From a virus: a stretch of 64,000 bases of DNA. Below the pieces are notes generated by a model, which was not told the DNA's origin, did no database searches, and worked only from the letters and a program-made list of their open reading frames with translations. The stretch lies in IMG/VR virus record IMGVR_UViG_3300032287_002972, positions 64,001 through 128,000 of that record, one strand, 5' to 3'. This document shows positions 26,947 through 57,413 of the stretch, one piece after another. The translations under genes were made by a program, and so were the position numbers. Numbering within the stretch: position 1 is the stretch's first letter; each line of letters opens with the position of its first letter.

Positions 26947-27056
26947 TTTAATATTTCTATATAAATAGAAAAAAAACTGGAAAATTTTTTTTCACATTTA
27001 CCCATAAAAAGTCGACTTTTAGGATTTTTTCCGGAAAAATTTCTGTTACGGCATTG

Positions 27057-27155
27057 TCCCCCCTCTGGACACATATAAAAAACCCTTATATAAGGGGGGG
27101 TACGGGAGGGGGGTATGGATAGGGGGGTATGGGGGGAATGGTCATAGAGGGGGTA
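27057..27155. other. G-tract junction (G-quadruplex-capable) at the divergent strand switch; candidate genome end or packaging region
   Basis: Six G runs (G7, G3, G6, G6, G6, G5) within about 60 bp of an otherwise very AT-rich genome. Confidence 0.5.
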
Positions 27156-27284
27156 CACTTTGAATCTAAGATAGGTTTGGGTCATTTGTAAGGGTAAACC
27201 CTACATACGGGGGTACGTTCGTCACAATCAATTTATGTACGTTTTAAAGGGGTAAAAATTATTTTAAAAATAAATATAAAAAAG

Positions 27285-27316
27285 TTTGGATTATACAAAA
27301 CTAAATATTATCTTTG
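27285..27316 (+). promoter_or_regulatory. First Bacteroidota sigma70-type early promoter; about 35 similar copies up to 54 kb
   Basis: TTTG-N20-TATCTTTG with A-rich upstream tract; matches the Bacteroides/Flavobacterium -33/-7 consensus. Confidence 0.85.
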
Positions 27317-27357
27317 TCAAGTCGTTATGACATTCACCACTAAAGATTTTTTAACAC

Positions 27358-27612
27358 ATGGAAACAACAATCAATTTTTCTTTCATCGTGACAAGAGACA
27401 CGGTTGAAAATTTCAGAGGTACATTACCTTCAAAATTTTCGACACCACAGGAATTGTGGAAACACATTAAGTACCATTCTGAAAACATTGAATCCTTTGA
27501 GTTAGAAAGGTTCGAATTTGACGTTGACTATAACGGTTGGACAAACAAACTAACCATTGACCAAATTGTCAACGACCCTTTAGAAGATGAGTTTGATATT
27601 GAGTTTGAGTAA
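27358..27612 (+). CDS. Early hypothetical protein (Ala-free, acidic)
   Basis: Lies between promoter and terminator. Confidence 0.75.
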   Translation: METTINFSFIVTRDTVENFRGTLPSKFSTPQELWKHIKYHSENIESFELERFEFDVDYNGWTNKLTIDQIVNDPLEDEFDIEFE

Positions 27613-27627
27613 CCAAACTAAGAATAA

Positions 27628-27750
27628 CCCTACCAATTAGGTGGGGTTATTTTTTTGTCATGTATGTAAACCCTACCAATTAGGTAGGATTAATAAGTTC
27701 TACTGAATAGGTAGGATTAATATGTTCTACTGAATAGGTAGGATTAATTT
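27628..27750. repeat. Short tandem hairpin repeats (CTAC..AATAGGTAGGATTAA); related copies at 28180-28245
   Basis: Four related units seen directly. Confidence 0.7.
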
Positions 27751-27935
27751 AGGGGAAAATGAAATTAGTGGGGCAACGACCTCACCATTCCATGGGGTAC
27801 TTGCCCCACTAAATTTTCCGTGGATACGGGGTAAAAATTATTTTAAAAATAAATATAAAAAAGTTTGGATTATACAAAACTAAATATTATCTTTGTCAAG
27901 TCGTTATGACGTTCACCACTAAAGATTTTTTACTT

Positions 27936-28163
27936 ATGAGTTTATTATTGACCGAGTACCTTACGGTACAAAATGTTCTGAATGAGAAATTTGAGAACCT
28001 ACTCGAAGAGTTCACCACAAACGAATTTGTCACCGAAGTTGGGGACAAAATCTTTGAGGAAACGGGAAAGACGTTTGACGACGAAGAAGTCAAAGAGATG
28101 ATTGGGGAAACGTTGTTTTCTCATCTACTTTTAAATGTATCCTTATTGATTAATAACCAATAA
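27936..28163 (+). CDS. Early hypothetical protein, paralog of 35209
   Basis: TNEFVTEVGDKIFEETG versus TNEFVEEIGDEIFEKTG. Confidence 0.75.
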   Translation: MSLLLTEYLTVQNVLNEKFENLLEEFTTNEFVTEVGDKIFEETGKTFDDEEVKEMIGETLFSHLLLNVSLLINNQ

Positions 28164-28428
28164 GGATACCTTAAAAATACCCTACTGAATAAGTAGGGTA
28201 TTTTTTTGTCATGTATGTAAATCCTATCAAGTAGGTAGGATTAATTTGGGGGAAAATAAAATTAGTGGGGCAAGTACCCTATGGAATGGTGAGGTCGTTG
28301 CCCCACTAAATTTTCCGTGGATACAGGGGTAAAAATTATTTTAAAAAAAGTATAAAATAAATTTGTTTATATCAAACTAATTTTGTATTTTTACGTTATA
28401 ATTATTTCACCACTTAAAATTTATTACC

Positions 28429-28722
28429 ATGAATAAGGTAGATTGGGACTTGACAGATAGTCTAAACTCGTTGTTACAATTGGAAAAAATACCTTTTAAT
28501 GAGGTGTTTCCTTTTTGGGATAAAAACATTGATAAGGTAAAAAATACCTTTTATCCTGAAAGAAATACTACTCATATCAACGAACATGAGTGGTATGAGA
28601 ATAGGTTGTTTGTGTGGTATAATAACAATGTACGGTATGTATCAAGATATATATGTACACAAGACCCTGACGACGGTCTTATATGTGATATAGGTGAGGG
28701 TGTAATGTTATATCCCGAATAA
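28429..28722 (+). CDS. Early hypothetical protein
   Basis: Cassette architecture. Confidence 0.75.
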   Translation: MNKVDWDLTDSLNSLLQLEKIPFNEVFPFWDKNIDKVKNTFYPERNTTHINEHEWYENRLFVWYNNNVRYVSRYICTQDPDDGLICDIGEGVMLYPE

Positions 28723-28936
28723 TCAAAAGACCCCGAATGAAAGTTCGGGGTTCTTTATTGGGAAAATTGGAATTAGTGGGGCAAGTACCCTATGGAATGG
28801 TGAGGTCGTTGCCCCACTAAATTTTCCGTCCACGGTGACGTGAAAAATTATTTTAAAAAAAAAGATAAAATAAATTTGGTTATATCAGAATATAGTTTTA
28901 TCTTTGGGTATTGTTAAAATTAAAAAAAAATCAGTC

Positions 28937-29158
28937 ATGAGAATCAAGGAAAAAATTTCAGAAATCTTAGTTGTATGTTTTTGTTTATTTACCCTTACAG
29001 TAGGGTTGAATATCATTATTGAAAACACATTACCTTTAGGGGTAATTATTTTCAGTTTTATGGTATCAATTTTAACCCTATTACTTAGTGTAGTATTAAT
29101 AGGGTCATGGGTAAAGGAATATAGAGAAGAAAAGAAAAGAAGAAATAGGTCTTTTTAA
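28937..29158 (+). CDS. Early two-TM membrane protein
   Basis: Two hydrophobic segments and a basic tail. Confidence 0.7.
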   Translation: MRIKEKISEILVVCFCLFTLTVGLNIIIENTLPLGVIIFSFMVSILTLLLSVVLIGSWVKEYREEKKRRNRSF

Positions 29159-29420
29159 ACCTAAGACATAGTGGTATGTTTTTGTGTCCCCGACTATTAT
29201 AGTTGGGGATTTTTTTTGTCTGTACTTTTGGTTGACGAGAAGACAATAGTTAAATAAAATTAGTGGGGCAAGTACCCTATGGAATGGTGAGGTCGTTGCC
29301 CCACTAATTTTTCCGTGGACGGTGGTGTAATTTTATTTTTAAAATAATATAAAATAAATTTGGTTATATCAAATATTATTATTAGATTTATACTTTAGTT
29401 AATTACAAAAACAAACAACG

Positions 29421-29741
29421 ATGGAAATTACACAAAAAAAGAAATGGAAACAAACTATTGGAATTAAGGGTTATTATAGACCTATCAATTCCATTGGGGG
29501 TATTAAGTTTACTTACACTGATGAGAAAATTCCCACAAAGAAAATGAGGTCTGAATTAAAGAGATTTAAAAAGATTTTAAGACAACATGAAATTTCTTTT
29601 AGAACGGTTTTCTCTGAAAGTAGTTCACCAAATGTAGGTTACTTTTTTATTGTAGTTAGTCCCGAAAACTTAGAGAAAGGTAGTTACCTTTCTTATCTTT
29701 ATGGTAGAGAGAAAGACGTTCGTTTTTTCTTTAGTTATTAA
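29421..29741 (+). CDS. Early hypothetical protein
   Basis: Cassette architecture. Confidence 0.75.
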   Translation: MEITQKKKWKQTIGIKGYYRPINSIGGIKFTYTDEKIPTKKMRSELKRFKKILRQHEISFRTVFSESSSPNVGYFFIVVSPENLEKGSYLSYLYGREKDVRFFFSY

Positions 29742-29958
29742 TGAAAGACCCCGAATGAAAGTTCGGGGTTCCTTATTGGGTAATACAAAATTAGTGGGGC
29801 AACCGTATGACAGTATGGGGGTAGGTATGACACTTGCCCCACTAATTCGAGTTTGTTCAGGAGGTAAAAAAATTTTTTTAAAATAATATAAGATAAATTT
29901 GGTTATATCGGAAAATAGATTTATCTTTGGGTATTGTTAATTTTTAAAACTTATTACC

Positions 29959-40455: not shown

Positions 40456-40680
40456 ATGTATAACAAACACATTTGGGAAGGGTGGACTGTTCGAGACTTT
40501 ATTAACGACCTCGAACCAACATTTAATTTAATCATGGAGGGTCAATCTCACATGAAACCTTTTAACAATGATAATGAACTAAAAGAGTGGTGTAAAGATA
40601 ACCAACCTTATTACAAAAAACACATTCCCGAAGTTTTCAATTATTTTAAAGGTAAAATAATAAATTACAGAGGTCTTTAA
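40456..40680 (+). CDS. Early hypothetical protein
   Basis: HIWEGWTV.DFI...WC..NQPYYKKHIPEV. Confidence 0.75.
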   Translation: MYNKHIWEGWTVRDFINDLEPTFNLIMEGQSHMKPFNNDNELKEWCKDNQPYYKKHIPEVFNYFKGKIINYRGL

Positions 40681-40691
40681 AACTATTTAAA

Positions 40692-40967
40692 ATGAGTAAC
40701 CAAAAAATTGTTCGTGATTTATCTAAAGAGTTTATTAGTAAAATAGACAACTACAATATAAGGGGGTGTTTTATTGATTTTAAAAAACCATTTAAAATAT
40801 ACGTTGAACAAGGTAGTGAAAACGTGAAACACTCTTATGTTGTTTATGGTATGGACGAAAAAGGTCTTTATACAAGTGATTTTGATATTCCATTAAGTGA
40901 TATTGAAGTTGAAACACTTGGGTATATTCTCGATGTTCTTGAATCAAATGAATTTATTATCGGTTAA
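40692..40967 (+). CDS. Early hypothetical protein
   Basis: Second gene in its cassette. Confidence 0.7.
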   Translation: MSNQKIVRDLSKEFISKIDNYNIRGCFIDFKKPFKIYVEQGSENVKHSYVVYGMDEKGLYTSDFDIPLSDIEVETLGYILDVLESNEFIIG

Positions 40968-41167
40968 ACTAAAATCCCCTTACGAAAGTTTGGGGAATTT
41001 TTTTGGGTCAAATCCAATTTAGTGGGGCAAGGAATGGTTAGGTCGTTGCCTCACTAATTCGAAATATGCACACGCTGTGGTAAAAAATGAATTAAAAATA
41101 GTATAAAATAAATTTGGTTATATGAAAACTTTGTTTTATCTTTGTCTAAACAAAAACAATAACAATT

Positions 41168-41626
41168 ATGGGATTTTTTTCATGGAAAACGAGTGATACT
41201 AATAAAAGTATCCCAAGTAATTACAGTAACAGAAGTACCTTTACTGTACACTTAATTACAAAAGACCGTCAAATTTTCACTGAATCCGATTATGAAGGTT
41301 ATGGTGTGTTTGGTGGTAAAGATTTTTACGAACTTGTTGCGGAACTGAATGGAATTACAGAAGGAACTACTGACGAAAAAAGAAGTGAAGGGATTGATAT
41401 TTGTTTCAAAGATAATCCAAGTGGTGAGTTTAACGGAACATTTGAATATCCAAAATTGGTTGAGGAACTACCAAGTGAATCTCGTTGGGAAGAACAATGG
41501 GAAAGATTACCTTATCCTGAAAATTGTGAACATCAGGGATTTTTTTACGGTGATGAGGAAGAAGAAGAAGAAGAAGAAGAAGAATATGAATTTGAGGAAG
41601 AAGAAGAAGAATTTGAGGAAAAGTAA
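41168..41626 (+). CDS. Conserved phage protein with poly-Glu tail
   Basis: MGFFSW.T.DT...YEGYGVFGGKDFY...QGFFY; (GAA)n tail. Confidence 0.75.
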   Translation: MGFFSWKTSDTNKSIPSNYSNRSTFTVHLITKDRQIFTESDYEGYGVFGGKDFYELVAELNGITEGTTDEKRSEGIDICFKDNPSGEFNGTFEYPKLVEELPSESRWEEQWERLPYPENCEHQGFFYGDEEEEEEEEEEYEFEEEEEEFEEK

Positions 41627-41874
41627 TTAAATTAGTCCCGTATCATTTATTTGATACGGGATTTTTTATGATCGAAAATGAATTTAGTGAGGCAAACAAA
41701 ACGTATGACATTGCCCCACTAAATTCGGACTTGCTGTTGCACACTATTAATCTTTTGCCTCACTAAATTTGAACTCAGCACACGCTGTGGTAAAAAATGA
41801 ATTAAAAATAATATAAAATAAATTTGGTTATATGGAATTATTGTTTTATCTTTGACGAAACAAAAACAGACAAG

Positions 41875-42081
41875 ATGAAAAAACAAAAAGGTGTTCAAGT
41901 ATTATCCCCTGACGGGATAACAATCGAGTTTGGGTCTTTCTATTATGAGAATATGAAAGAAGCGAAAAGGGGTTTTGAACGGTGGAAAAAAAGATTTGAA
42001 AATCAGGGTTTTTACAGTTCAAATAACGGTAGAATCCCTTTAGATGAATTAGAAAAACATTGTCAATTTAAACCTATTTAA
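41875..42081 (+). CDS. Early hypothetical protein
   Basis: VLSPDG...RFENQGFYSS. Confidence 0.7.
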   Translation: MKKQKGVQVLSPDGITIEFGSFYYENMKEAKRGFERWKKRFENQGFYSSNNGRIPLDELEKHCQFKPI

Positions 42082-42084
42082 AAA

Positions 42085-42405
42085 ATGGAAAAGTTTAATC
42101 AAGTATGTGTTTGGGAAGGTACTACTGTTGGTGTTGGGTCTGAACAAGAATTTGTTGATTGGTTAAAACAAGTGTTTGGTGTGAGAGGTAAATATTTGGA
42201 AGAGGTGGAAACTTTACCTACACGAAATGAACCAAACACGGGTGGTAGAATTGATTTATTCTTTAGTGTACATGATGATGACATACCTAAATTTGCGGTA
42301 TCGAGGATTCTTTATGGTATTAGGTGGTGGGAAGACGTTTTAGGAAACGGTGGTGGTCAACTGTACGATGATACCGTATTACATAGGTATCCTAAGAGTT
42401 GGTAA
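42085..42405 (+). CDS. Early hypothetical protein
   Basis: GGRIDLFF...FAV.R...GIRWWEDV. Confidence 0.7.
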   Translation: MEKFNQVCVWEGTTVGVGSEQEFVDWLKQVFGVRGKYLEEVETLPTRNEPNTGGRIDLFFSVHDDDIPKFAVSRILYGIRWWEDVLGNGGGQLYDDTVLHRYPKSW

Positions 42406-42652
42406 TTAATCCCAAAAGTCCGTATCATTTATTTGATACGGATTTTTTATGATCGAAAATGAATTTAGTGAGGCAAACAAAACGTATGACATTGCCCCAC
42501 TAAATTCGGACTTGCTGTTGCTCACTATTAATCTTTTGCCCCACTAAATTTGAACTCTGCACGTGCTGTACTACAAAATAAAAAAAAGTATAAAATAAAT
42601 TTGGTATAATGAAAACTTTGTTATATATTTGTGGTATCAAAAAACAAACAAG

Positions 42653-42907
42653 ATGAAAGATGGAAAAATCACCTTATTAAAAGGTGAAGGAGCTCACCAA
42701 CATACTTTGTATGGTAGGTTTGAGGTCAAAAAAGATTTTACCGATTTTACAGAAGTTGACGTACTCGAATGTCAATTAAGACATGAACTACCAAACGGTA
42801 CATTTGGTGAACACAATACACTAAATGTAGAAAGTGGTGAATGGGTCATGGGTAAACAAGTTGAGTATAATCCTTTGAGTAAAAAGGTTACAAGAATTTG
42901 GGATTAA
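42653..42907 (+). CDS. His-containing small protein of the type seen next to DUF6745 genes
   Basis: GEGAHQH...H.....EH...QVEYNP.....IWD. Confidence 0.6.
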   Translation: MKDGKITLLKGEGAHQHTLYGRFEVKKDFTDFTEVDVLECQLRHELPNGTFGEHNTLNVESGEWVMGKQVEYNPLSKKVTRIWD

Positions 42908-42996
42908 TCAAAAAAAGACTATCTACCTTTACTATATCTTAAATAATGGTAGATAGTCTTTTTATCTTTTTCATTATATTTATAATAAAAAGTATA

Positions 42997-43596
42997 ATGA
43001 AAAAGATAAGAGAAGTTTTAGCACCAAACCAAAAAATTTTTACAACTAAAGGTGAAGAAACATCGTGGTCATTTTTACATGATGTTGAATACAAAAAATA
43101 CGGTAAAACCGTGAGAAGAATAATTAAAGTTAAATGTGAATGTGGTAGAATTAAAGATGTTCAATATAACAACATTCGTGGAGGTCATTCAAAATGTTGT
43201 GGTTTTGATCCTTGTCGAATACCATATAATAAACATAGAAGAAATCCTGAAACCACATATAATGTACTTTATTATACATACAAAAAAGGTGCGTTAAAAA
43301 GACATTTACCTTTTGAATTAAGTATAGACCAATTTAAAACATTTTTAGATAAAAATTGTTTTTATTGTGATGAAATACCTTCAAGTGTATATGAAATTAG
43401 AAACAGTCAAACAGGTAGAATTAGGGCTGGTTTACCATTAACATATAATGGTATTGATAGAATGGATAATAATATTGGATACACGATGGATAATTCCGTA
43501 ACTTGTTGTATTACTTGTAATAGAATGAAACTGGCGTTAGGTTATCAAGATTTTTTAAATCATGTTGAAAAAATATACAAAAAAATGTACAAATAA
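42997..43596 (+). CDS. HNH-type homing endonuclease
   Basis: CECG, CFYC, NGIDRMDNNIGYTMDNSVTCCITCNRMK; own ATATTTATA motif upstream. Confidence 0.8.
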   Translation: MKKIREVLAPNQKIFTTKGEETSWSFLHDVEYKKYGKTVRRIIKVKCECGRIKDVQYNNIRGGHSKCCGFDPCRIPYNKHRRNPETTYNVLYYTYKKGALKRHLPFELSIDQFKTFLDKNCFYCDEIPSSVYEIRNSQTGRIRAGLPLTYNGIDRMDNNIGYTMDNSVTCCITCNRMKLALGYQDFLNHVEKIYKKMYK

Positions 43597-43666
43597 ATTT
43601 GAAAATATAAAATTTATATTTGTATATTTGTGTTGTTATTTACTTATTAACTCAAAAAAATTCATA

Positions 43667-44074
43667 ATGAATCCTGAAGTACATTCAAAAAGTTCAGTAA
43701 AAAGATGGGGTGGTAAAATTTCTGATTATTTGGACATACATATTCTTTTAGATAGTCCAAAATCAACAATGAACAATAATAGTTCAAGGTTACTCACTCA
43801 CAATACATGGTTTGCGTATCACATTATACCCAAAATATTTGGTTACAATATAACCAATAGTGACGGAAAAAGTGTTGATACTGTTGACGTGGCGATGTTA
43901 CACATAGCCGAAGACTTTAGAATGAAATTTGTACCTACCCCACAAGATTATTTAAAACATTTAGATGTTCAACCGTGGATGTGTAATGGTATAAAAGATT
44001 TAGGTAGTAAAGAAGGAACTGAAATTGTTAAAAACTTAAACCAAAAACTAAAAGATGAAAACTCAAACAGTTGA
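43667..44074 (+). CDS. DUF6915-like protein
   Basis: P..HSKSSVKRWGG...DY..IH..LD.....R..TH...HIAED. Confidence 0.7.
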   Translation: MNPEVHSKSSVKRWGGKISDYLDIHILLDSPKSTMNNNSSRLLTHNTWFAYHIIPKIFGYNITNSDGKSVDTVDVAMLHIAEDFRMKFVPTPQDYLKHLDVQPWMCNGIKDLGSKEGTEIVKNLNQKLKDENSNS

Positions 44075-44711
44075 ATTAGAAGAAAGTTTAAAACTATGGA
44101 AAAAATCAATGATTGACCATTGTATTATGGATTTTTCATGTGGTGGTGATTCTATGAATGAATTTACTTTTGTATTTTATGATGAAAATAAAAATGTATT
44201 ACGTTCTGAAGACATTGAAACCATTGATAAATTTTTTGAAGAAGAAGTTTTTGATAAGGTAGATTTTTATGTAAATTCTGACGGTCACTACTTGGGTGAA
44301 TTTGGAACGGTACATATTGAATTGAATAATGATGGTGATGATTTTGAATATTCAAAAGATTCTTCATCTGAATATTCTGAATCCGTTACCGAAGAATTTA
44401 TATTCCAATTAACTGATGATGAGTATGACTTACTTAGTGAAAAAATTTCAGATTTTAATGGTGATACTTCGGGACTTGTTGTAAACTACAATTTGGATTG
44501 TATTATTACCGATAAAGAAATAATCACTATGAATGATTTTGAAAAGAAAATTATTAACTTTGTTCTTGATGTTGAATTTGAACATGGTTTTGAGGAGGCT
44601 CAAGAAGAAAGTGAAACTTTTGAATGTAATGTTCAAGATGTATTAAACGAAAATAAGACGATAGAACTTATTATAACTAGGTCGTATTACGTCACTGTTA
44701 CTAATGATTAA
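44055..44711 (+). CDS. Acidic DUF6878-like protein
   Basis: FSCGGDS...G.FGTV; follows the DUF6915-like gene. Confidence 0.55.
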   Translation: MKTQTVELEESLKLWKKSMIDHCIMDFSCGGDSMNEFTFVFYDENKNVLRSEDIETIDKFFEEEVFDKVDFYVNSDGHYLGEFGTVHIELNNDGDDFEYSKDSSSEYSESVTEEFIFQLTDDEYDLLSEKISDFNGDTSGLVVNYNLDCIITDKEIITMNDFEKKIINFVLDVEFEHGFEEAQEESETFECNVQDVLNENKTIELIITRSYYVTVTND

Positions 44712-44776
44712 TAAATCTATTTAAGAATCCCTAACTATTTTGTTAGGGATTCAAAAACAAAACAAAAACAAACAAG

Positions 44777-45484
44777 ATGAAAATAGTTATTGATAATGTT
44801 GAGTTTCCTTTCAATGAAGGTTGTAAACTCCTCAAACTAAAACATGGTTCAAATACTGAAAGTCCTTTTAAAGAGATTGAAGACTTTTGGAACGAAATTG
44901 AACCATTAACATTTAAAGAAATTATTACCACATTTAATAACGTGGAACAAAGGAGAATAGCCTTATCCTATTTAGGTTTAGAAAATCTTTCAAAAGAAAT
45001 CAATTCTAAATTGGTTTCAAGTGAAACAATTTCAAAAGAAACTACATGGGTCAATAAAGAAGGTGTTACCGAAACAATTAAGTTTGAAGACAAATATGAA
45101 TTATATTCTGTTGACCCAAAAGAATTAGGGTATCATGAACAACACGTTTGGTATAATGGGAGTATCAATATGGGAAATTACCATTACCTTAAATTTAAAG
45201 ATACGTCAACCGATAGAGAATATTTACTTTGGGTGGATTGTGGAAACATAATTAGAACGAAATCCGAAGGAAAAAATAATGATACACATTTACGCACAAT
45301 TCATGTTGACGCCATTGACGCCATCGCATGGACAATTCAAACTAATCTAAAAAAGGGTGACATTGAAAAAATTATCCGTCAAGGTGATTGTATCTTACTG
45401 AAAAGAAAAAAAGGTGTTGAAACTGATGTTGTAAGACATTTAACAAGTGACGAATATCGTTCTTTACTTGTATTGGAAAGTTAA
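44777..45484 (+). CDS. DUF6745-like protein
   Basis: NVEQRR, DTSTDREYLLWV, AIAWT, RQGD. Confidence 0.6.
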   Translation: MKIVIDNVEFPFNEGCKLLKLKHGSNTESPFKEIEDFWNEIEPLTFKEIITTFNNVEQRRIALSYLGLENLSKEINSKLVSSETISKETTWVNKEGVTETIKFEDKYELYSVDPKELGYHEQHVWYNGSINMGNYHYLKFKDTSTDREYLLWVDCGNIIRTKSEGKNNDTHLRTIHVDAIDAIAWTIQTNLKKGDIEKIIRQGDCILLKRKKGVETDVVRHLTSDEYRSLLVLES

Positions 45485-45573
45485 ATTTTCATTCTTGATT
45501 TTTGTTTAAAATCCCTGACTAATTTGTCGGGGATTTTTCTTATCTTTGTTTAAACTTTAAAAAACCAAAACGT

Positions 45574-46464
45574 ATGACAAAAAATGTAGTATCCTTATTC
45601 GATGGAATGAGTAGTTTACAAATATCCTTGAGAAACTTGGGTATTGAAATTGATAACTATTATGCTTCTGAAATTGAACCCGACCCAATTAAAGTAACAT
45701 TATCCAATTTCCCTAAAACAAAATATCTTGGTGATGTTAGATATATTGATACGTCAACCCTATACAATATATGGTTGTTAGGTGCAGGGTCACCATGTAC
45801 AGATTTTTCTTTAATGGGTTTGAGAAAAGGTTTATTAGATATTCATACTTTAGATGAATATCTTAGATTGAAACATGAAGGTTTTGATTTCGGGAATACT
45901 CAATCTATTTTGTTCTTTGAGTTTCTAAGAATCTTAAAAGAATTAAACCCAACGTACTTTTTTTTGGAGAACGTGGTATTAAAAGGAGAATTTAAAAAGT
46001 ACGAGAAAATGATTTCTGAATACTTAGGGGTTGAACCAATGATTATAAATAGTTCTTTGGTTTCATCACAAAATAGAGAAAGATGTTATTGGACAAATAT
46101 CCCGAATGTAAGTGTTCCAAAAGATAGAAAGATTTATTCTTTTGATGTTATTCCTAATTCAATTAGTTGTGGTGTTAGAGGTGTAATGAATAAAGATGAA
46201 GGTAAGTATATTCAAAAATTAACCTTTAGAAAAGATGATAAATTTAACTGTTTGGTTACGAATCCCCATTCAACAAATTTAGTTAAGGTTGGGAATGAGG
46301 ATATAAGAAAAATAACTATCGAAGAATCTGAAAGAATCCAAACAGTTCCCGTTGGTTATACTAATGTTGAAGGTGTTTCCGATTCAAGTAAATATAAAAT
46401 GATTGGTAATGGTTGGACAATTAATGTTATTGACCATTTGTTAGAACCATTAATTAATGAATAG
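45574..46464 (+). CDS. DNA (cytosine-5) methyltransferase
   Basis: SLFDG (motif I), GSPC (IV), LENV (VI), QNRER (VIII), IGNG (X). Confidence 0.9.
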   Translation: MTKNVVSLFDGMSSLQISLRNLGIEIDNYYASEIEPDPIKVTLSNFPKTKYLGDVRYIDTSTLYNIWLLGAGSPCTDFSLMGLRKGLLDIHTLDEYLRLKHEGFDFGNTQSILFFEFLRILKELNPTYFFLENVVLKGEFKKYEKMISEYLGVEPMIINSSLVSSQNRERCYWTNIPNVSVPKDRKIYSFDVIPNSISCGVRGVMNKDEGKYIQKLTFRKDDKFNCLVTNPHSTNLVKVGNEDIRKITIEESERIQTVPVGYTNVEGVSDSSKYKMIGNGWTINVIDHLLEPLINE

Positions 46465-46782
46465 TTTACTTTCTATTTGGTTTTGTGTATAATTACCATT
46501 ATTGTGTTATCACAAAATTTATCTTTGGTTTGAGGGTGGAATTTTTTTCACCCTTTTTTTTATACCTGAAAATGAATTTAGTGGGGCAAGTTGTAACAAA
46601 TAAATGCTTAATTTGTTACAACACAAATTTAGTGGGGCAAGGATTGGAAACGGGGTTGCCCCACTAAATTCAAAATTTACGCACGGAGTAAAAAATAATT
46701 ATAAAAAAAGTATAAAAAACATTTGGTTATATCAAATATTCTTTTTATCTTTGTATTATTAAATAACTAAAACAATAACATC

Positions 46783-47088
46783 ATGGCATTTTACGGCGAC
46801 GGGAAACACAATGAGAACATGGAAAAAACAACTCCAGTTTTAAGAGAGTTTATTTTTAATTTAGACCAAAAGGTCACTACATGGATGAGAACAGAATTTA
46901 CGATTGAAGCGGAAACATTGACTGAAGCAAAAGAACTTGCAATTAAGTTTCATTTAGATGGAGAAACAGAAGAAATTGAATGGAAACAAATTGAGGGGTG
47001 TTATGAAAAATTAGACATAGAAGATAACTTTAATGACCCTACGGAAGAAATTTTCTTTAACGGTCTTATTGTATATTCTAACAAGTAA
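46783..47088 (+). CDS. Acidic hypothetical protein
   Basis: Promoter-ORF-terminator. Confidence 0.7.
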   Translation: MAFYGDGKHNENMEKTTPVLREFIFNLDQKVTTWMRTEFTIEAETLTEAKELAIKFHLDGETEEIEWKQIEGCYEKLDIEDNFNDPTEEIFFNGLIVYSNK

Positions 47089-47246
47089 TAAAAAAGGGTG
47101 GGAAGAAATTTCCACCTTTTTTTGTTTATGTGTATTACGTCACCAACTTACATTCGTGTATTACCTGAGCGGTAAAAAAAAGTATAAAAAATATTTGGTT
47201 ATATGAAATTATTGTTTTATCTTTGTGGAAACAAAAACGAACAACT

Positions 47247-47471
47247 ATGAGGTATCAAATTAAAAGAGAATGTTGGAACGAAAAAACGTTCAACGGTTAT
47301 CAAGACAATCCATATTGGAGAATTGATTTTCAAGATATGGGGTATGTTTTATTAGATGATGGTAGAGTATGGTGTACTAATGGTATGGAAATTTCAGACC
47401 CTGTTTTAGATGATATTAGGACAATTATTAAGGAATGTAAACTTAATATTGAATCACTAATAAAACTATAA
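47247..47471 (+). CDS. Hypothetical protein
   Basis: Follows a promoter. Confidence 0.65.
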   Translation: MRYQIKRECWNEKTFNGYQDNPYWRIDFQDMGYVLLDDGRVWCTNGMEISDPVLDDIRTIIKECKLNIESLIKL

Positions 47472-47474
47472 ACA

Positions 47475-47753
47475 ATGAAAAAAACAGAATTGATTAATTA
47501 CATTCAAGGGGTTGTTAAAACGTATGGTGAATTTTCAACCGCTGACGTTGAAGCAGATTCAAGTCCCGTTATTAAATCATTACGGAACACACACTTATTA
47601 GCAGAAGTTTTTGGTGAAGAAAAAGTAACGGCGGTTTTATATGTCGATGACAATGATGTTGATGAGGAATATATTAGTTATGATGAGTTAAGTAAAGATG
47701 TGTTGAAAGAAATTTCTTTACTATGTAAACAATGGGAATTACAGGAAAAATAA
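47475..47753 (+). CDS. Hypothetical protein
   Basis: Coupled ORF. Confidence 0.65.
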   Translation: MKKTELINYIQGVVKTYGEFSTADVEADSSPVIKSLRNTHLLAEVFGEEKVTAVLYVDDNDVDEEYISYDELSKDVLKEISLLCKQWELQEK

Positions 47754-47818
47754 ATATAAAAAATGTTTGGTTATTTCAAATATTCTTTTTATCTTTGACG
47801 AAACAAAAACGGTAAATT

Positions 47819-48013
47819 ATGAAACTAAAGTTTGAAGTAAAATGTAATTGGTGTGATTGGGAAGGTTACGAAGACGATTTGACATTAGAAGTAGATTTGT
47901 CCGATAACTTAATTTCACACGACGTACAGTATAGGAAAGTTTGTCCTGAATGTTTATCAGAGGATCATTTAATGGATATTGAATCTGATGAATTAACATC
48001 TAAAATAGATTAA
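47819..48013 (+). CDS. Small zinc-finger protein
   Basis: CNWC...CPEC. Confidence 0.7.
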   Translation: MKLKFEVKCNWCDWEGYEDDLTLEVDLSDNLISHDVQYRKVCPECLSEDHLMDIESDELTSKID

Positions 48014-48016
48014 ATT

Positions 48017-48196
48017 GGTAAGGTGGCGGAATGTTTAAACAACCCCGTTCCAGACGGGAAAATAACGTGGTTCGAATCCACTACGGGGTTAATGTTTAAA
48101 CTTGGTTAGACGCACCATAATAATAATATTTGGAAGGAGATAAGAATGGCGCTTACCCTAAACCAAATTTTACGGGTTCGAATCCCGTCCTTACCG
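48017..48196 (+). ncRNA. tRNA-like RNA with a nested mini-tRNA in the D-loop and a replaced anticodon arm
   Basis: GGTAAGG/CCTTACC acceptor, TGGCGGAAT...TGGTTAGACGC, ACGGG-TTCGAAT-CCCGT. Confidence 0.7.
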
Positions 48197-48386
48197 CGAC
48201 AGTTAGCGGATTATACTTGGTAGTTCTTGTAAAGTCTGACTATACGTGAGGTGGTTTTTTTAACTTTCCACCAGTAGTGTTCAAAACTAAAAGTTAATGC
48301 AGGTTAATAAAGGGGTAAGGGAAAGTCTAACTATCGAGTACCTTACAACCTACTGTATAAAATGTACATATTTAAAATTGATTATT

Positions 48387-48770
48387 ATGGAAACCAATTT
48401 CAAAATTCCTAAATTTATAAATAATAACAATTCATTTGAAAAGATTGGATATGATGAATATTGTATTACATATCTTAAAGGACTTAAAGTCCATCAATTA
48501 AGGATTGTTGTGAATGGATATTTAACCAAACAATCAATAAACATTATTGATTTTAGTTCAGGATATAAAAACAAAATATTAATTGGTATTAAAGAATATC
48601 TTACAAACGGTAAGGATAGTAAAAATAAAGTCACTAAAAAAGTTACACTGTATTACTTAGAAACTTTTTATTCAAAAAAAATAATTCATAATGTTAAATC
48701 ATTCTTATTACCTATTAATAAAGAAGAGTCAAGAGATAAATTAACTGAATTTGGATTAATCAATTTATAG
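48387..48770 (+). CDS. Hypothetical protein between two tRNA-like elements
   Basis: ATG at 48387 preferred. Confidence 0.6.
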   Translation: METNFKIPKFINNNNSFEKIGYDEYCITYLKGLKVHQLRIVVNGYLTKQSINIIDFSSGYKNKILIGIKEYLTNGKDSKNKVTKKVTLYYLETFYSKKIIHNVKSFLLPINKEESRDKLTEFGLINL

Positions 48771-48866
48771 TAAGGTGGTGGAATTGGTTAGACACACCGA
48801 AAGGTAGGTACGGTATGGATCCCGATTAAATAATCCTAAATACGGGTTCGAATCCCGTCCTTACTA
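48769..48866 (+). ncRNA. tRNA-like RNA without a canonical anticodon arm
   Basis: AGTAAGG/CCTTACT, GTGGAATTGGTTAGACAC, ACC-GAAA-GGT, ACGGG-TTCGAAT-CCCGT. Confidence 0.7.
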
Positions 48867-49118
48867 CATATTCTCGATTTCTGTTTATAGTTGTTGTAAT
48901 TACGTTTTTGGTTTGAGGGTAGGAAGAAAAATCCTACCCTTTTTTTATGCTTAATTGAATTTAGTGGGGCAAGGATTGGAACGGAGGTTGCCCCACTAAA
49001 TTCAAACTATATTGTTACCTGGTTCAAAAAAATACTTATAAAAAACTATAAAAAACATTTGGTTATATGGGATTTTATTTTTATCTTTGTTAAGTATTTA
49101 TAACTAAAAAACTTTGAC

Positions 49119-50042
49119 ATGAATAAACAAATTAGAGAAGACATTAATCGAGTGATTGAACTAAATAAAATTTTAGAATCACAATCAGAAATGGGAGAAA
49201 GTGGATTTAGTTCTGTTGGGAGACAACTTAGGGGTCTTAATCCTAAAGTCCAAACAATTGCAATTCTTACGGGTGAAAATCCTTGTGCAGTAAAGTTAAC
49301 ACCACAAGAGAATACTGAACTAAATAGAAAATTAACCGACTATTTAGGGAAGGAATATTACGATTTTATTAACGGTAAACGTATAGGTTATAGACCCGTA
49401 AAAGGTATGTATGGTTCACCAGAAAATAGTTATATTGTAAATAATATTACTAAAGATGATGCAATGAAAATTGGTAGTGATTTTGAACAAGAAAGTATTG
49501 TCTATGGTGAAAGATATGAAGAAGGTGATGAATATGGAATGAAATTCCAATTAATTGTAAGTCACCCATGTCCTACAACAGAAGATCCCGTTGGTACTGT
49601 ATGGGGTGAAACAAAAGTTTTTATTAATGTAAGAAAAAATGCAGATGATTTTTACACCGAAGTTAAGGGTCGTAAATTTTCAATACCTTTCTTTGGTGCA
49701 GATAAGTACGACAAAGATTTAGATACTGATGGAAAAGAACAGAAAGACCAAGACGGAGAAATTAAATTAAAAAAAGTTGGGTATAGTGATTATAGTAAAG
49801 CCGGTTGGGAAAAAGATAGTGGTAAAATAAAAGATATTGATTTTACTCCCGAACCTATTAATGAAACTTTTGACTATAAGGGAACTGTATATAAACCGAA
49901 CCAAAATTATAAAAATATCCCTAATGAATTAAACGAACAAATTGATAGGGCTCTACGTGGTAGTTTAAATTCTCCAAATCCTCCAAGTAGAAAAATAAGA
50001 AGGGCGTTTGTTATGACTAAATTAAGAAAGTATAAAGATTAA
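49119..50042 (+). CDS. DUF3293-like protein with virion-type leader
   Basis: ILTGENP...EN...N..L...GMYGSPENSY...FEQESIV; IREDINRVIEL..ILE. Confidence 0.6.
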   Translation: MNKQIREDINRVIELNKILESQSEMGESGFSSVGRQLRGLNPKVQTIAILTGENPCAVKLTPQENTELNRKLTDYLGKEYYDFINGKRIGYRPVKGMYGSPENSYIVNNITKDDAMKIGSDFEQESIVYGERYEEGDEYGMKFQLIVSHPCPTTEDPVGTVWGETKVFINVRKNADDFYTEVKGRKFSIPFFGADKYDKDLDTDGKEQKDQDGEIKLKKVGYSDYSKAGWEKDSGKIKDIDFTPEPINETFDYKGTVYKPNQNYKNIPNELNEQIDRALRGSLNSPNPPSRKIRRAFVMTKLRKYKD

Positions 50043-50259
50043 AATAAAACAAAATAAAAAAAATCCCCGTATTAAAAACACGGGGATTTTTTTATGCTTA
50101 ATTGAATTTAGTGGGGCAAGGATTGGAACGGGGGTTGCCCCACTAATTTCAAACTACGCAGTTACCTGTATCAAAAAAATACTTATAAAAAAAATATAAA
50201 AAATATTTGGTTATATCAAATATTTGTTTTATCTTTGTCGAAACAAAAAACGATAAACA

Positions 50260-51015
50260 ATGAATTATTTGAATCGACCCAACGCAAAGAAATTAACGGG
50301 ACTAAATTATTTAGGTTCTATTAATCTAACAACGAAACACGCTAAGGCGTACGACTACAATGAACTAACCTATTCACTTTATTTGGCACCCGCTAAAATG
50401 AGTGGTTATGAGGTTTGTCCTAAAAGGAATGAGGAGTGTACCTCTTTATGTTTAAACGAATCGGGAATGAATCGTATTGACGTAAAGAAAAACAGAATCA
50501 ATGAATCGAGGATTAAAAAAACAAAACTATTTTTTGAAGAAAGGGAATTTTTTGTAAATTGGTTAATCGATGAAATTTCCATTGCGAAAAGGAAATCTGA
50601 AATTGTGGGTTATAAATTTAGTGTTAGGTTAAATAACACGTCGGATATTTCACCCGAATTATTTTACACTATGATTGACGGTAAAAAGAAAAACATATTG
50701 GAAATATTTCCTGATGTTCAATTCTACGATTATACGAAAGTATATAACAGAATTAAACTAACTAAAAAATATCCTAATTACGACCTCACATTTTCATTCA
50801 GTGGTTATAATTTTGATGAGTGTATTGAATCCTTAAATAATGACGTTCGTGTTGCCGTGGTCTTTAAAAAAGTACCTGAAAAATTTTGGGGTTATGAAGT
50901 CATTGACGGTGACAAATATGACATGAGGTACAAAGATGGAAAAAATGTTATTGTGGGTTTGAAATTTAAAACAGTTAGAAATAAAATTAAAGAAAATTAT
51001 AAATTCGTTGTTTAA
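50260..51015 (+). CDS. GP88-like phage protein
   Basis: LYLAP, CP....C...CL, VRLNNTSDI, QFYDYTK, YDLTFS, DGD..D.R, VGLKFK. Confidence 0.8.
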   Translation: MNYLNRPNAKKLTGLNYLGSINLTTKHAKAYDYNELTYSLYLAPAKMSGYEVCPKRNEECTSLCLNESGMNRIDVKKNRINESRIKKTKLFFEEREFFVNWLIDEISIAKRKSEIVGYKFSVRLNNTSDISPELFYTMIDGKKKNILEIFPDVQFYDYTKVYNRIKLTKKYPNYDLTFSFSGYNFDECIESLNNDVRVAVVFKKVPEKFWGYEVIDGDKYDMRYKDGKNVIVGLKFKTVRNKIKENYKFVV

Positions 51016-51176
51016 TCTTTTTGTTTTATTCCGTACCATTTATTTGGTACGGATTTTTTATAATCTAATTTAGATTTAATTTGGTAAGGACTGTCATACA
51101 ACACAAAAAAAATATAAAATATATTTGGTTATATGGATTATTCTTTTTATCTTTGTCTTAATAAAAAAACATAAAC

Positions 51177-51458
51177 ATGAATGAAGTAACGAGAGCAAAA
51201 GAAGTTTTAAAAAACGCAGGTTATTTTGTGGATAACCTTTGGTGTAATGATGACATTGAATCTTTTTTTACTAATGTATCTAAAGAAGACTGTCAAAAAG
51301 TATTAAACAGAGCGTTAACCAATGATGCAACAATGGAACAAATTTGGTACGCAATCGAATCTGTTGGTGAAGACATGGGGTTAAAACGTACTGACTATGA
51401 GGAGGACGACAACACTTGTTCGTACTGTGGAAGAAAGGATTGTGTGAAACATGATTAA
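51177..51458 (+). CDS. Hypothetical protein
   Basis: Promoter-ORF-terminator; CSYC tail. Confidence 0.7.
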   Translation: MNEVTRAKEVLKNAGYFVDNLWCNDDIESFFTNVSKEDCQKVLNRALTNDATMEQIWYAIESVGEDMGLKRTDYEEDDNTCSYCGRKDCVKHD

Positions 51459-51603
51459 TTTATTTGGGTAGGATAATTTTCCTACCCTTTTTTATTGTTC
51501 GATTTGAATTTATGTATTACCTACATTACAAAAAATAATTATAAAAAATGTTTGGTTATATGGAAAAGTATGTTTATCTTTGTCTAAACAAAAAACAATT
51601 ACT

Positions 51604-51972
51604 ATGAAAAATGAATTTATCCCGTTTCAACAAGCGTTGGAACTAAAAGAATTAGGATTTGATGAACCCTGTTTAGGTAAATTTTACTATAATCATTTAG
51701 AAATTGGAGGAAATTGGCGTAATGATGATTTTAAAGAAGACCCTGATATTTTTATTTCGGCGCCACTATACCAACAAACATTTAGGTGGTTTAGGGAAAA
51801 ACATAGTTTATTTCATTCAATAGACCCACTTGGATATAATATGTGTTTAGGACTTGTAGGTCAATTAGGGAAATTAAAATCTTGTAATGTACCTAATTAT
51901 GGTACTTATGAAGAGGCGGAACTTGAATGTACTAAAGAATTAATCTCAATAGTGAAAACAAAAAAGAACTAA
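51604..51972 (+). CDS. ALELKELGFDEPC family protein, copy 1
   Basis: Shared N-terminus, PLYQQ.F.WFREK, TYEEAE. Confidence 0.75.
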   Translation: MKNEFIPFQQALELKELGFDEPCLGKFYYNHLEIGGNWRNDDFKEDPDIFISAPLYQQTFRWFREKHSLFHSIDPLGYNMCLGLVGQLGKLKSCNVPNYGTYEEAELECTKELISIVKTKKN

Positions 51973-51973
51973 A

Positions 51974-52381
51974 ATGGAAAATGAATTTATCCCGTTTCAA
52001 CAAGCGTTGGAACTAAAAGAATTAGGATTTGATGAACCCTGTTTTGGTAAAATCTATGCTGATGGTGGAAGTGAACAATTATCGTACCCTTATAAAAATA
52101 GTGACCAAATAGGGAAAGTAACAAGTTGTTCCGCACCACTATACCAACAAGTATTTAGATGGTTTCGGGAGAAGTACAATTTGAGAGGATTTATAGGGTT
52201 TAGACCAAATATAAAACAATTTGATTATCATATCTATGATATGTCTTTGTCAGGTAAGGAATATGTTAAACAAAGAACTTATGAAGAGTTTCAGAAAGAC
52301 CCTAAATTCGGAACTTACGAAGAAGCAGAACTCGAATGTACTAAAGAATTAATCTCAATAGTGAAAAATAAATATAAATAA
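51974..52381 (+). CDS. ALELKELGFDEPC family protein, copy 2
   Basis: Same motifs as copy 1. Confidence 0.75.
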   Translation: MENEFIPFQQALELKELGFDEPCFGKIYADGGSEQLSYPYKNSDQIGKVTSCSAPLYQQVFRWFREKYNLRGFIGFRPNIKQFDYHIYDMSLSGKEYVKQRTYEEFQKDPKFGTYEEAELECTKELISIVKNKYK

Positions 52382-52436
52382 TATTTGGTTATATGGAAAA
52401 GTATGTTTATCTTTGTCTAAACAAAAAATAATAACA

Positions 52437-52847
52437 ATGAGAAGAATTAAAGTTAGATTTTCCTTACAACGTGGGGAGAATTACATGAAGTGGAAAGTAG
52501 TTGATAGTGACGGAACTGTTACTTATTATTCACCATGTGATACACAACTAATCATGCGGGGGTGTACTTTGAAAAACAATACAAAACTATCTGAAAAGAT
52601 TTTCAATGGTACGTCAACTAAGAACATATGTGGTTGGATTTTATGTGAAAGTATTGAGATTAACCATTCCGATTTTATTAAAGAATCGGATTTTAAAATC
52701 AAATACAACCCTAAAATTGCACCGTACTGGATGTTCTTAGGTGAGAATGTTGACAATAGAGAAATTTCATATATTGTTTCTGTTGACTACAAACTATGTA
52801 TTGACTTAATTCCCGACGCGATGAAATTAGGGGGCTACAAAGGTTAA
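52437..52847 (+). CDS. Hypothetical phage protein
   Basis: KVRF.L.RGENYMKW...YNP. Confidence 0.7.
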   Translation: MRRIKVRFSLQRGENYMKWKVVDSDGTVTYYSPCDTQLIMRGCTLKNNTKLSEKIFNGTSTKNICGWILCESIEINHSDFIKESDFKIKYNPKIAPYWMFLGENVDNREISYIVSVDYKLCIDLIPDAMKLGGYKG

Positions 52848-52963
52848 TATCGGTATCACAAACTTTTATTCAATTATGTAAAAAATAGTTGAATAAAAGT
52901 TTGGAAAATAAAAACATTAACTTTATATTTGTATATTATTTATAACCAAAAAAAATTAGAACA

Positions 52964-53509
52964 ATGGGATTAGACATGTATTTGTACAAAAAATCGTATG
53001 TACAAAATTGGGATCATCATGAACCAAAAGAAAAACATACAATTACTGTTAAACTTGGTGAAAATATCCGAGAGGATATTAAACCAGAACGTATTACCTA
53101 CATAGTTGAAGAAGTTGGGTATTGGAGAAAGTTCAATGCGTTACACTATTGGTTTGTTGAAAATTGTCAAGATGGGGTCGATGATGGAAGAGAACATTAT
53201 GTTACAATGAATCAAATGAAAGAATTATTGGACACTCTTAATGAGGTTAAGAACTTATTAGATAAATCTAAATTAGTTTCTAAAGTTTCAAAAGATTGGC
53301 AAGGTAATGAAATTACTGTTGAATGTTTCGAGTGTGAAAACGAAGTTATGGATATTCTACCCCCAATGGAAGGGTTTTTCTTTGGTGGAACTGATATAGA
53401 CCAATACTACAAAAACCAAATTGAAAGAAGTATCGATATTATTCAAGAGTTGATTAATGAAACAGATAACGGAAAAAGTTCTGAATTTCATTATCACGCA
53501 TCATGGTAA
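52964..53509 (+). CDS. Conserved phage protein
   Basis: MGLDMYL...YWRKFNALH.WF...GFFFG...YHASW. Confidence 0.75.
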   Translation: MGLDMYLYKKSYVQNWDHHEPKEKHTITVKLGENIREDIKPERITYIVEEVGYWRKFNALHYWFVENCQDGVDDGREHYVTMNQMKELLDTLNEVKNLLDKSKLVSKVSKDWQGNEITVECFECENEVMDILPPMEGFFFGGTDIDQYYKNQIERSIDIIQELINETDNGKSSEFHYHASW

Positions 53510-53569
53510 AATGATTTATGGTACGGTCTTCATTGACCGTACCTTTCTTTAAAAACAAAATAGATTAAT

Positions 53570-53911: not shown

Positions 53912-54034
53912 GATTAAAGAGTGTAGTACAAACTTTCATTCACATAAAAAATAATTGAACAAAAGTTTGGAAATTAAAAATATTAACTTTATATTTGTAT
54001 ATTATTTATAACCAAAAAAACAAAACAGGTTAAA

Positions 54035-54735: not shown

Positions 54736-54759
54736 CAAAAACAAACAAAATAAATTAAT

Positions 54760-57405: not shown

Positions 57406-57413
57406 TATATTAC

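What the first reader, a model, noticed from the sequence alone, without database searches (positions are those of the whole stretch)
27762..50149. About 25 GC-bearing palindromes placed only in gaps between terminator and promoter
Seen: (AAT)TAGTGGGGCAA-spacer-TTGCCCCACTA(ATT) recurs about every 0.5-1 kb in the GpC-free zone and more sparsely afterwards. Each arm carries one GC, and variant arms (GTGAGGCAA, TTGCCTCAC at 41046-42476) keep it. The one forbidden dinucleotide is thus conserved in inverted pairs in DNA predicted to be untranscribed. Inference: the palindromes and the GpC purge are one system. They could be regularly spaced modification marks or decoys, binding sites for a co-injected protective protein, nick or ejection-pause signals, or cruciform recombination sites.
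Basis: partly seen in the sequence, partly recalled or inferred. Interest (0 to 1): 0.88.

Follow-up and report, generated by a model that had tools for sequence, protein, structure and literature searches.

The report
Phased operator sites beside GpC-free genes
At the end of a giant freshwater phage's genome that probably enters the cell first, each small early gene is preceded by paired copies of a short site that looks like a protein-binding operator, and the surrounding 10 kb has been cleared of the letter pair GC and of restriction sites; related phages show that the repeats and the clearing are two separate traits that overlap.

Summary
Observation confirmed. There are 24 arm pairs plus 7 lone arms, all between a terminator and a Bacteroidota-type promoter. 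Over 10,108 bp the only GpCs are in arms (0 outside vs 206 expected).

The 'one system' inference mostly fails its own test. Relatives carry a homologous site with a GC-free core both with a strong GpC purge (L221, L217/L218) and without one (G034, G030).

The arms behave as directional dsDNA protein sites, not hairpins. They occur singly, in tandem or as direct repeats, and sit in 10.3-bp helical phase with the promoter (P=0.0004). The array is PeSL-like and its cassettes are shuffled between relatives.

The void is part of a wider purge (GATC, CTAG, CCGG, CCAG, CCNGG, GGNCC) starting at a conserved 58-bp element where three relatives' contigs end, so probably a first-injected end, like T5's. 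Silent GpC is avoided genome-wide on both strands, pointing to an unidentified GpC-directed DNA enzyme. DNA flanking the arms mostly escapes it, suggesting shielding by bound protein.

Neither the binding protein nor the enzyme was identified. The scan had already seen both features on other genomes.

The parts
27056..27113 (.). Conserved 58-bp G/C-run element with 8-bp inverted ends; probable physical genome end or short terminal repeat (inferred)
   Evidence: 75-90% identical in distant relatives. Contigs G010 and G012 end at the base equivalent to 27113, and G025 starts at the base equivalent to 27056. GC skew and gene direction flip here.
27053..37158 (.). Absolute GpC void (except arms), also free of GATC, CTAG, CCGG, CCNGG, GGNCC and nearly of CCAG/CTGG; 16 alanine-free ORFs
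   Evidence: The same ~10-kb void is in close relatives L150 and L153, whose arms have different sequences.
37159..45292 (+). Graded zone: GpC tolerated in alanine codons and in the gaps, not at silent coding sites
   Evidence: NGC codons 1/224 and G|C junctions 0 in the 37.1-46 kb bin; first silent GpC at 45293.
27766..37001 (.). 15 arm pairs inside the void (spacers 22-51 nt); the spacer of the first pair is inverted relative to pairs 2-4
37355..50145 (.). 9 arm pairs with 15-nt spacers plus lone or extra arms (37355, 38619, 41755, 42536, 46579)
56501..57624 (+). Two lone degenerate left arms (56501, 57614)
27285..53997 (+). About 36 Bacteroidota-type promoters (-33 TTTG / -7 TAnnTTTG) preceded by A-tracts; right-arm core mostly 60-66 bp (also 43 and 68-73) upstream of the -33 box
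   Evidence: (D5, D7); promoter consensus as in PMC6847099
28729..38495 (+). Intrinsic terminators closing the one-gene units, distinct from and upstream of the arms; stems built from C and G runs without GpC
29792..42502 (.). Second sub-motif GTAT(G/T)ACA, placed 3-6 nt inside an arm in either orientation, sometimes twice 20 bp apart; conserved in all relatives examined
   Evidence: 31 copies in 27-59 kb
45574..46464 (+). C5-cytosine DNA methyltransferase inside the array; specificity unknown; not required for the purge because G001 lacks one
   Evidence: PF00145 E=4e-30; absent from G001-G005
38963..39874 (+). DUF932 gene, used as an array marker in relatives (neighbours: RadC-like 37954-38445, GP88-like 50260-51015)

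Best explanation
Two traits overlap at the leading end of a ~300-kb T4-like Bacteroidota phage. (1) The 'palindromes' are head-to-head pairs of a directional site (clade pattern, read in right-arm orientation: [G/T]CC-N5-AWT) bound on double-stranded DNA by a sequence-specific protein. The sites are held on one face of the helix relative to the host-type early promoters. Most likely they form the upstream control region that switches on, or later shuts off, the early one-gene units. As repeated DNA they also let cassettes be gained, lost and reordered by homologous recombination, as with PeSLs. (2) The void is selection against DNA-cutting or DNA-modifying enzymes on the DNA that enters the cell first. 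Ordinary restriction sites were purged, and so was GpC, the target of an unidentified enzyme that also suppresses silent GpC genome-wide. In this lineage the arm keeps its GC because the binding protein needs it and, once bound, probably covers it. Shown: anatomy, phasing, lone and tandem arms, co-purge of restriction sites, separability in relatives, cassette reordering. Inferred: physical end and first entry, protein binding, regulatory role, shielding, existence of the GpC enzyme.
For: Phasing: nearest right-arm core to -33 box clusters at 43, 50-54, 60-66, 71-76 and 84-85 bp. Lone left arms cluster at 10-12, 20-22, 33, 43-44 and 53-58 bp. Best period 10.3 bp, P=0.0004 on distinct per-lineage values. 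Not stems: G001 has about 60 sites but only 11 pairs. L153 has three left arms in tandem. G035 has 18 of 19 copies in one orientation. Left and right arms match no better than shuffled partners in 6 of 8 sets. Same element in ten lineages in one register. Separability. Restriction-site co-purge. DNA level: the least-avoided contexts are GCG and its reverse complement CGC; all flanks are avoided at silent sites. Shielding footprint: GpC o/e near elements is 0.7-1.3 against 0.14-0.57 in ORFs in 6 of 7 purged loci (also 86). Terminus. Cassette order differs among this phage, L150 and L153. T5 precedent: PMC10644984.
Against: No binding protein was identified. The ParB-like gene in many relatives' arrays is absent from this genome and from L150/L153. 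No GpC enzyme was found, though this record is only about 50% complete. In this phage and its two closest relatives the gaps in the first 10 kb are also void outside the arms (0 vs 33 expected), and so are G035's flanks, so shielding is incomplete or absent there. Two sets did show better arm matching than shuffles (P=0.004 and 0.003). Copies are homogenised, so counts overstate independence. Contig ends could be a sequencing break at G-runs. The GP88 tree does not resolve how many independent switches occurred (support 12-71).
Confidence: 0.6

Rival explanations
1. One system. Virion DNA carries a bulky modification at GpC, for example methyl-C oxidised and glycosylated as in phage C5-MT/TET/GT clusters. 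It blocks host RNA polymerase, so transcribed early DNA is purged while the gaps keep GpC as regularly spaced protective marks or decoys.
For: All 30 GpCs of the void are in arms. Gaps keep or exceed expected GpC while ORFs are purged, even in lineages with GC-free arms. G013 gaps hold GATC 74 vs 18 expected against 40 vs 156 in transcribed DNA. Phage GpC-specific C5-MT/TET systems exist (PMC8256090). The genome has glycosyltransferases and a C5 MTase. No GC-core lineage with normal GpC was seen.
Against: Arms without GC coexist with the strongest purge (L221), and elements persist without a purge (G034, G030). No TET, TGT/DpdA or 2OG oxygenase was found here or in 92%-complete G001, and G001 has no C5 MTase. 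Gap GpC is about neutral (o/e near 1), not clearly enriched. Late genes, made from newly copied DNA, avoid silent GpC too.
Confidence: 0.13
2. The arms are cis sites for DNA entry or packaging, not transcription: pause or ratchet points in staged ejection like T5's injection stop signal, or small-terminase sites bent by IHF like lambda cosB.
For: The sites are confined to the first ~25 kb beside the probable end. In G013, L011 and L012 the first arm sits just beyond the boundary element. Some G001-type spacers hold an IHF-consensus sequence. T5's stop region is rich in inverted repeats (bioRxiv 10.1101/866236).
Against: Phasing is to the promoter box, one set per transcription unit. There is no long non-coding block at the void's right edge. 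IHF-like spacers are lineage-specific and were not seen in this phage's own spacers.
Confidence: 0.12
3. The elements are folded single-strand or cruciform recombination sites (attC- or REP-like) for a recombinase that shuffles the cassettes.
For: Spacer lengths vary under constant arms. The first spacer is inverted. Predicted stems reach -20 to -29 kcal/mol. Cassette order differs between relatives.
Against: Lone, tandem and direct-repeat arms occur. Arms are mostly non-compensatory. The sites are phased to the promoter. No tyrosine recombinase was found in the record. The first spacer starts with the same 'inverted' motif in L153, so the inversion looks fixed. Homologous recombination is enough to explain PeSL-type shuffling (PMC2839356).
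Confidence: 0.07
4. The GpC purge acts on RNA: a GC-cutting mRNA endonuclease (MqsR-like) or a dinucleotide-specific RNA modifier. Untranscribed arms are simply invisible to it.
For: Gaps escape while ORFs, leaders and terminators are purged in most relatives. MqsR cuts at GCU (bioRxiv 10.1101/2021.07.08.451724). The pressure is genome-wide.
Against: Context preference is strand-symmetric. Palindromic restriction sites are purged along with GpC. Gaps in the first 10 kb are void too, and gap GpC falls toward the end in all relatives. The MqsR search was insensitive: its control did not ring.
Confidence: 0.08

Closest known systems
PeSL promoter-early/stem-loop cassettes of T4-type phages (Arbiol 2010, PMC2839356; Comeau 2014, PMC4122927)
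   Same: Repeated terminator-plus-host-promoter units flanking small non-essential genes; gene gain, loss and reordering between relatives.
   Different: Here a 100-170-nt block with phased paired sites and a second sub-motif lies between terminator and promoter. The promoter is Bacteroidota-type. The units form one terminal array. PeSLs have no described operator arms and no motif purge.
First-step-transfer DNA of T5/BF23 (PMC10644984; bioRxiv 10.1101/866236)
   Same: About 10 kb at a genome end, free of restriction sites, carrying small genes under host promoters, with inverted repeats in non-coding DNA.
   Different: No evidence of a ~10-kb terminal repeat (contigs overlap by 58 bp instead), no long stop-signal block, no family hits to T5 pre-early genes, and a graded purge. 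A whole dinucleotide, and hence alanine, is removed.
Phage GpC-specific C5-methyltransferase/TET/glycosyltransferase hypermodification (Burke 2021, PMC8256090)
   Same: GpC specificity in a phage; a C5 MTase and glycosyltransferases are present in this genome.
   Different: No TET found; the MTase has no TET neighbour; relatives purge GpC without any C5 MTase.
P1 parS/ParB and lambda cosB (paired arm sites around an IHF bend; recalled from memory, not verified in a paper here)
   Same: Directional arms in helical phase; IHF-consensus spacers and a ParB-like gene occur in some relatives.
   Different: About 25 copies tied to promoters; no ParB-like gene in this record or the closest relatives; no IHF-consensus spacer seen in this phage.

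Membership tests
PeSL cassette | Strong host-sigma promoter ahead of a small gene, many near-identical copies | tested here: met
   About 36 TTTG/TAnnTTTG promoters
PeSL cassette | Terminator stem-loop just upstream of the promoter | tested here: inconclusive
   Terminators are present but lie 100-170 nt upstream, separated by the arm block; the arms are not the terminators.
PeSL cassette | Gene gain, loss and exchange at the cassettes between close relatives | tested here: met
   Order and content differ among this phage, L150 and L153.
PeSL cassette | Mini-circles formed by recombination between neighbouring cassettes | not testable with these tools
T5-type first-step-transfer DNA | Terminal region devoid of restriction sites | tested here: met
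   conserved in L150 and L153
T5-type first-step-transfer DNA | Located at the physical end, within a ~10-kb direct terminal repeat | tested here: inconclusive
   Three relatives' contigs end at the boundary, with a 58-bp overlap only; no read-end data.
T5-type first-step-transfer DNA | Long (>1 kb) non-coding injection-stop region at its inner edge | tested here: not met
   ORFs continue every few hundred bases across 37.1 kb.
T5-type first-step-transfer DNA | Two-step entry that needs pre-early gene products | not testable with these tools
   Needs an isolate; void ORFs had no significant family hits.
Phage C5-MT/TET/GT GpC hypermodification | TET/JBP gene within five genes of a C5 MTase | tested here: not met
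   No PF12851 match in G000 or G001-G005; G000 is about 50% complete, but the MTase's neighbourhood is fully in view.
Phage C5-MT/TET/GT GpC hypermodification | MTase methylates GpC; modified C in virion DNA | not testable with these tools
   Needs expression and methylome mapping.
Integron attC / REP-type folded recombination site | Arms maintained by base pairing (compensatory changes), always paired | tested here: not met
Integron attC / REP-type folded recombination site | Cognate tyrosine recombinase | tested here: inconclusive
   PF00589 is absent from the 168-kb record, which is incomplete; HUH transposase was not searched.
parS/ParB nucleoprotein site | Cognate ParB-like gene | tested here: not met
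   Present in G001, G005, G013, G022, G031-G033, G035, G036 and L216; a custom HMM finds none in this record, L150/L138, L153/L142, L217/L218, L221, G030 or G034. Several of these are fragments.
MqsR-type GC-specific mRNA interferase | MqsR-family gene; sense-strand-only avoidance | tested here: inconclusive
   The family search was insensitive; avoidance looks strand-symmetric.

The most novel reading that the evidence does not exclude
A GpC-directed DNA enzyme, either the phage's own host-DNA nuclease or a host defence, forces the first-entering genes to give up alanine. A virion-delivered protein binds the phased arms and builds protected nucleoprotein islands over the early promoters, in which GpC and restriction sites survive. 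This would be a prokaryotic counterpart of CpG islands, with arms and purge functionally coupled through shielding even though they are separable in evolution.
Probability: 0.25. Interest if true: 0.85.

Novelty: new variant of a known kind. Interest (0 to 1): 0.6.

Why it matters
It defines a clade-wide, lineage-drifting cis site for early-gene control in abundant uncultured freshwater jumbo phages, with a ready pull-down bait. It points to an unidentified enzyme with two-base (GpC) specificity, strong enough to remove an amino acid from 16 proteins. The comparison across relatives shows where to look: GpC-purged versus GpC-normal lineages. It also gives a sequence-only way to locate the first-injected end of such genomes.

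Tried and rejected
TET/JBP, TGT/DpdA (55), 2OG-Fe(II) oxygenase (119; only G008 hit) and tyrosine recombinase (22): none in this record or G001. Pfam sweeps of this genome and of G001-only genes found no DNA hypermodification enzyme beyond MTases; only the top 25 families were shown.

The C5 MTase as the cause of the purge: rejected as necessary, since G001 purges without one. MqsR search: uninformative. ParB-like protein as the universal binder: not met here. Sigma-54 promoter reading of TGGCA: the -12 element is at the wrong distance (by inspection). P1 parS resemblance: from memory; the paper search did not verify it. 'Each lineage's element holds its own forbidden motif': not supported in G030 or G034.

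Host scan: 10 scattered single hits in 185,579 genomes, two in Saprospiraceae, so no sign of a host repeat family. The exact-arm scan of viral contigs gave one unrelated hit; the promoter pattern gave none. RHH candidate: no atlas or PHROG hit. Atlas for the conserved 192-aa void protein: only unnamed clusters below 0.9. No complex or structure prediction was run, for lack of a candidate partner.


Full report
Setting. The window is bases 64001-128000 of a 168-kb linear virus record, about 50% complete. Its major capsid protein is T4-like: 31% identical to Flavobacterium phage immuto and 63-83% to many IMG/VR contigs, the longest 200-290 kb. Promoters match the Bacteroidota -33 TTTG / -7 TAnnTTTG consensus. 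A relative carries a Por-secretion sorting domain. The host is therefore inferred to be Bacteroidota.

Observation. There are 24 arm pairs at 27766-50145 and seven lone or extra arms; 49 exact arms occur against 0.015 expected, all in this array. Each unit reads terminator, arm block, A-tracts, promoter, one small ORF. From 27053 to 37158 there is no GpC outside the arms (206 expected), and 16 ORFs encode no alanine.

The void is more than GpC. GATC, CTAG, CCGG, CCAG/CTGG, CCNGG and GGNCC are missing for 12.7-25 kb around the same start, while GTAC, ACGT, TCGA and CATG remain. The purge is graded: silent GpC stays at zero to 45.3 kb, and alanine rises from 0 to about 2% along the array. It begins at a 58-bp element (27056-27113) conserved in distant relatives. 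Contigs G010 and G012 end at its last base and G025 begins at its first. I read this as the physical end that enters first, by analogy with T5, whose first-transferred DNA is where restriction sites matter (PMC10644984). A sequencing break at G-runs is the alternative.

GpC avoidance is genome-wide and clade-wide. At silent sites NGC/(NGC+NGT) is 0.02-0.03 against 0.16-0.36 for NAC, in all flanking contexts. The same holds in G001, which has no C5 MTase. A 50-kb stretch of immuto shows GpC o/e 0.94, so this is not general to Flavobacterium phages. The least-avoided contexts are GCG and CGC, mirror images, as expected of a double-stranded DNA target, although GpC-normal relatives show a weaker version of the same bias. 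No responsible gene was found.

The arms are directional sites. Relatives carry the same element in the same place with drifting middles: own GCC-CCACT-AAWT, L150/L153 GCC-AACYT-AAAT, G001 GCC-AAMCA-AAWT, G013 GCC-ACAGA-AAAT, G035 GCC-AAAGA-ATAT, G034 TCC-CAGTA-AAT, G030 TCC-GGTCA-ACT. They occur alone, in tandem or as direct repeats. Paired arms match no better than shuffled partners in six of eight sets. Two sets match better (P=0.004, 0.003), although most pairs in L150/L138 still mismatch. Distances to the -33 box cluster with a 10.3-bp period (P=0.0004 using distinct values per lineage). A second box, GTAT(G/T)ACA, sits 3-6 nt inside many arms, and some G001-type spacers carry an IHF consensus. 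This is the anatomy of a nucleoprotein complex on one face of the helix upstream of a promoter. Transcriptional control is my inference; an entry or packaging role remains possible.

Are arms and purge one system? The comparison gives three of four combinations. GC-core arms with purge: this phage, L150, L153, the Ga0169931 contigs, G001, G005, G013, G022, G031-G033, G035, G036, L216. GC-free core without purge: G034, G030 (silent ratio 0.71, 0.93). GC-free core with strong purge: L217/L218 (0.21-0.29) and L221 (0.05; alanine 1%). GC-core without purge was not seen. The tree does not fix the number of independent switches. So the purge does not need GC in the arms, and the element does not need the purge.

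What survives of the link. In most purged relatives the DNA within about 45 bp of the elements has normal GpC (o/e 0.7-1.3) beside ORFs at 0.14-0.57. It also keeps restriction sites, for example GATC 74 vs 18 expected in G013 gaps against 40 vs 156 in transcribed DNA. Bound protein shielding the gaps explains this most simply; a transcription-blocking modification or an RNA-level pressure would also explain it. In this phage's first 10 kb, and in G035, only the arms themselves keep GC. Copy homogenisation lowers the effective sample size throughout.

Shuffling. Cassette content and order differ among this phage, L150 and L153, as for PeSLs (PMC2839356, PMC4122927). It works like a PeSL array. 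Membership is incomplete because of the inserted arm block and the untested mini-circles.

Earlier scan notes. The scan reported the phased motif (e1-5409964, e1-5374646) and the GpC void (e1-5320965) on other genomes; I found those notes after reaching the phasing and void results. The proposal that the motif occurs only with a ParB-like gene does not hold for this record or its two closest relatives, with the caveat of incomplete genomes.

Verdict. The feature is real and striking. It is best read as phased operator-like sites in a PeSL-like early array at a restriction-purged leading end, overlaid by an unexplained GpC purge. New variant of known kinds; interest 0.6.

Noticed in passing
L121, L123, L126, L130-L133 (metagenome contigs): GpC-rich repeat arrays, apparently non-coding, with 9-28 copies each, in both orientations, of the same arm 11-mer, usually followed by GTGTGTAA. 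No BLAST similarity to this genome. Origin unknown; may be chance convergence.
   Followed up: partly
window 59237-64000 and L005 (genome 122-140 kb, minus strand): Array of small ORFs with a 12-nt period; GpC o/e 0.14-0.28 and alanine 0.65%, with no arms. Low alanine here partly reflects the repeat.
   Followed up: partly
window 13964-18375 and genome 36219-37684: Tandem paralogues starting MKHSEVL with internal 90-nt repeats.
   Followed up: no
window 1-26946 and elsewhere: Many unrelated ORFs share an N-terminal MKIIITESQ-like leader, possibly a capsid-loading signal. Some of these co-injected candidates could be the arm binder or the GpC enzyme.
   Followed up: no
window 27660-27750 and 28180-28245: Short direct repeats (TAGGTAGGATTAAT-type) between terminator and left arm in the first two units.
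   Followed up: no
window 42946-43596: HNH/endonuclease VII-like gene (PHROGs E=4e-11) with no counterpart in L138 or L142; probably a recent insertion.
   Followed up: partly
window 49119-50042: 307-aa ORF with DUF3293 (E=6e-8) and a sub-threshold SAM-lyase hit (E=0.03), absent from relatives; it occupies the slot where relatives carry the ParB-like gene.
   Followed up: partly
window 30487-31341: Largest gene in the void: N-terminal hydrophobic stretch, EP repeat and weak endolysin-family hits (E about 2e-4).
   Followed up: no
window 54659-54736: ARAGORN calls one tRNA-like gene with no valid anticodon; earlier notes describe a family of such elements.
   Followed up: no
G014 (L158-L160): A more distant relative (MCP 63%) avoids CpG (o/e 0.08-0.3) instead of GpC, has several C5 MTases, and shows no cassette array around its DUF932 gene.
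   Followed up: partly
G034 (L199-L201): This GpC-normal relative strongly avoids GGTCA (5 vs 37), which lies in the element core of another relative, G030.
   Followed up: no
L163:2500-2582 and 4184-4302; G006 100262-100320 and 102636-102741: The left part of the boundary element is duplicated 1.7-2.4 kb upstream in two relatives.
   Followed up: no
G001 108-124 kb and its sugar-gene clusters: 16-kb stretch with GC skew near -0.7; a RuBisCO-large-chain family hit (E=1e-31) among proteins mostly drawn from the glycosylation clusters.
   Followed up: no
L134 gaps: Between right arm and promoter, this close relative carries short tandem GGCTATAGCC-type palindromes rich in GpC beside nearly GpC-free ORFs.
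   Followed up: partly
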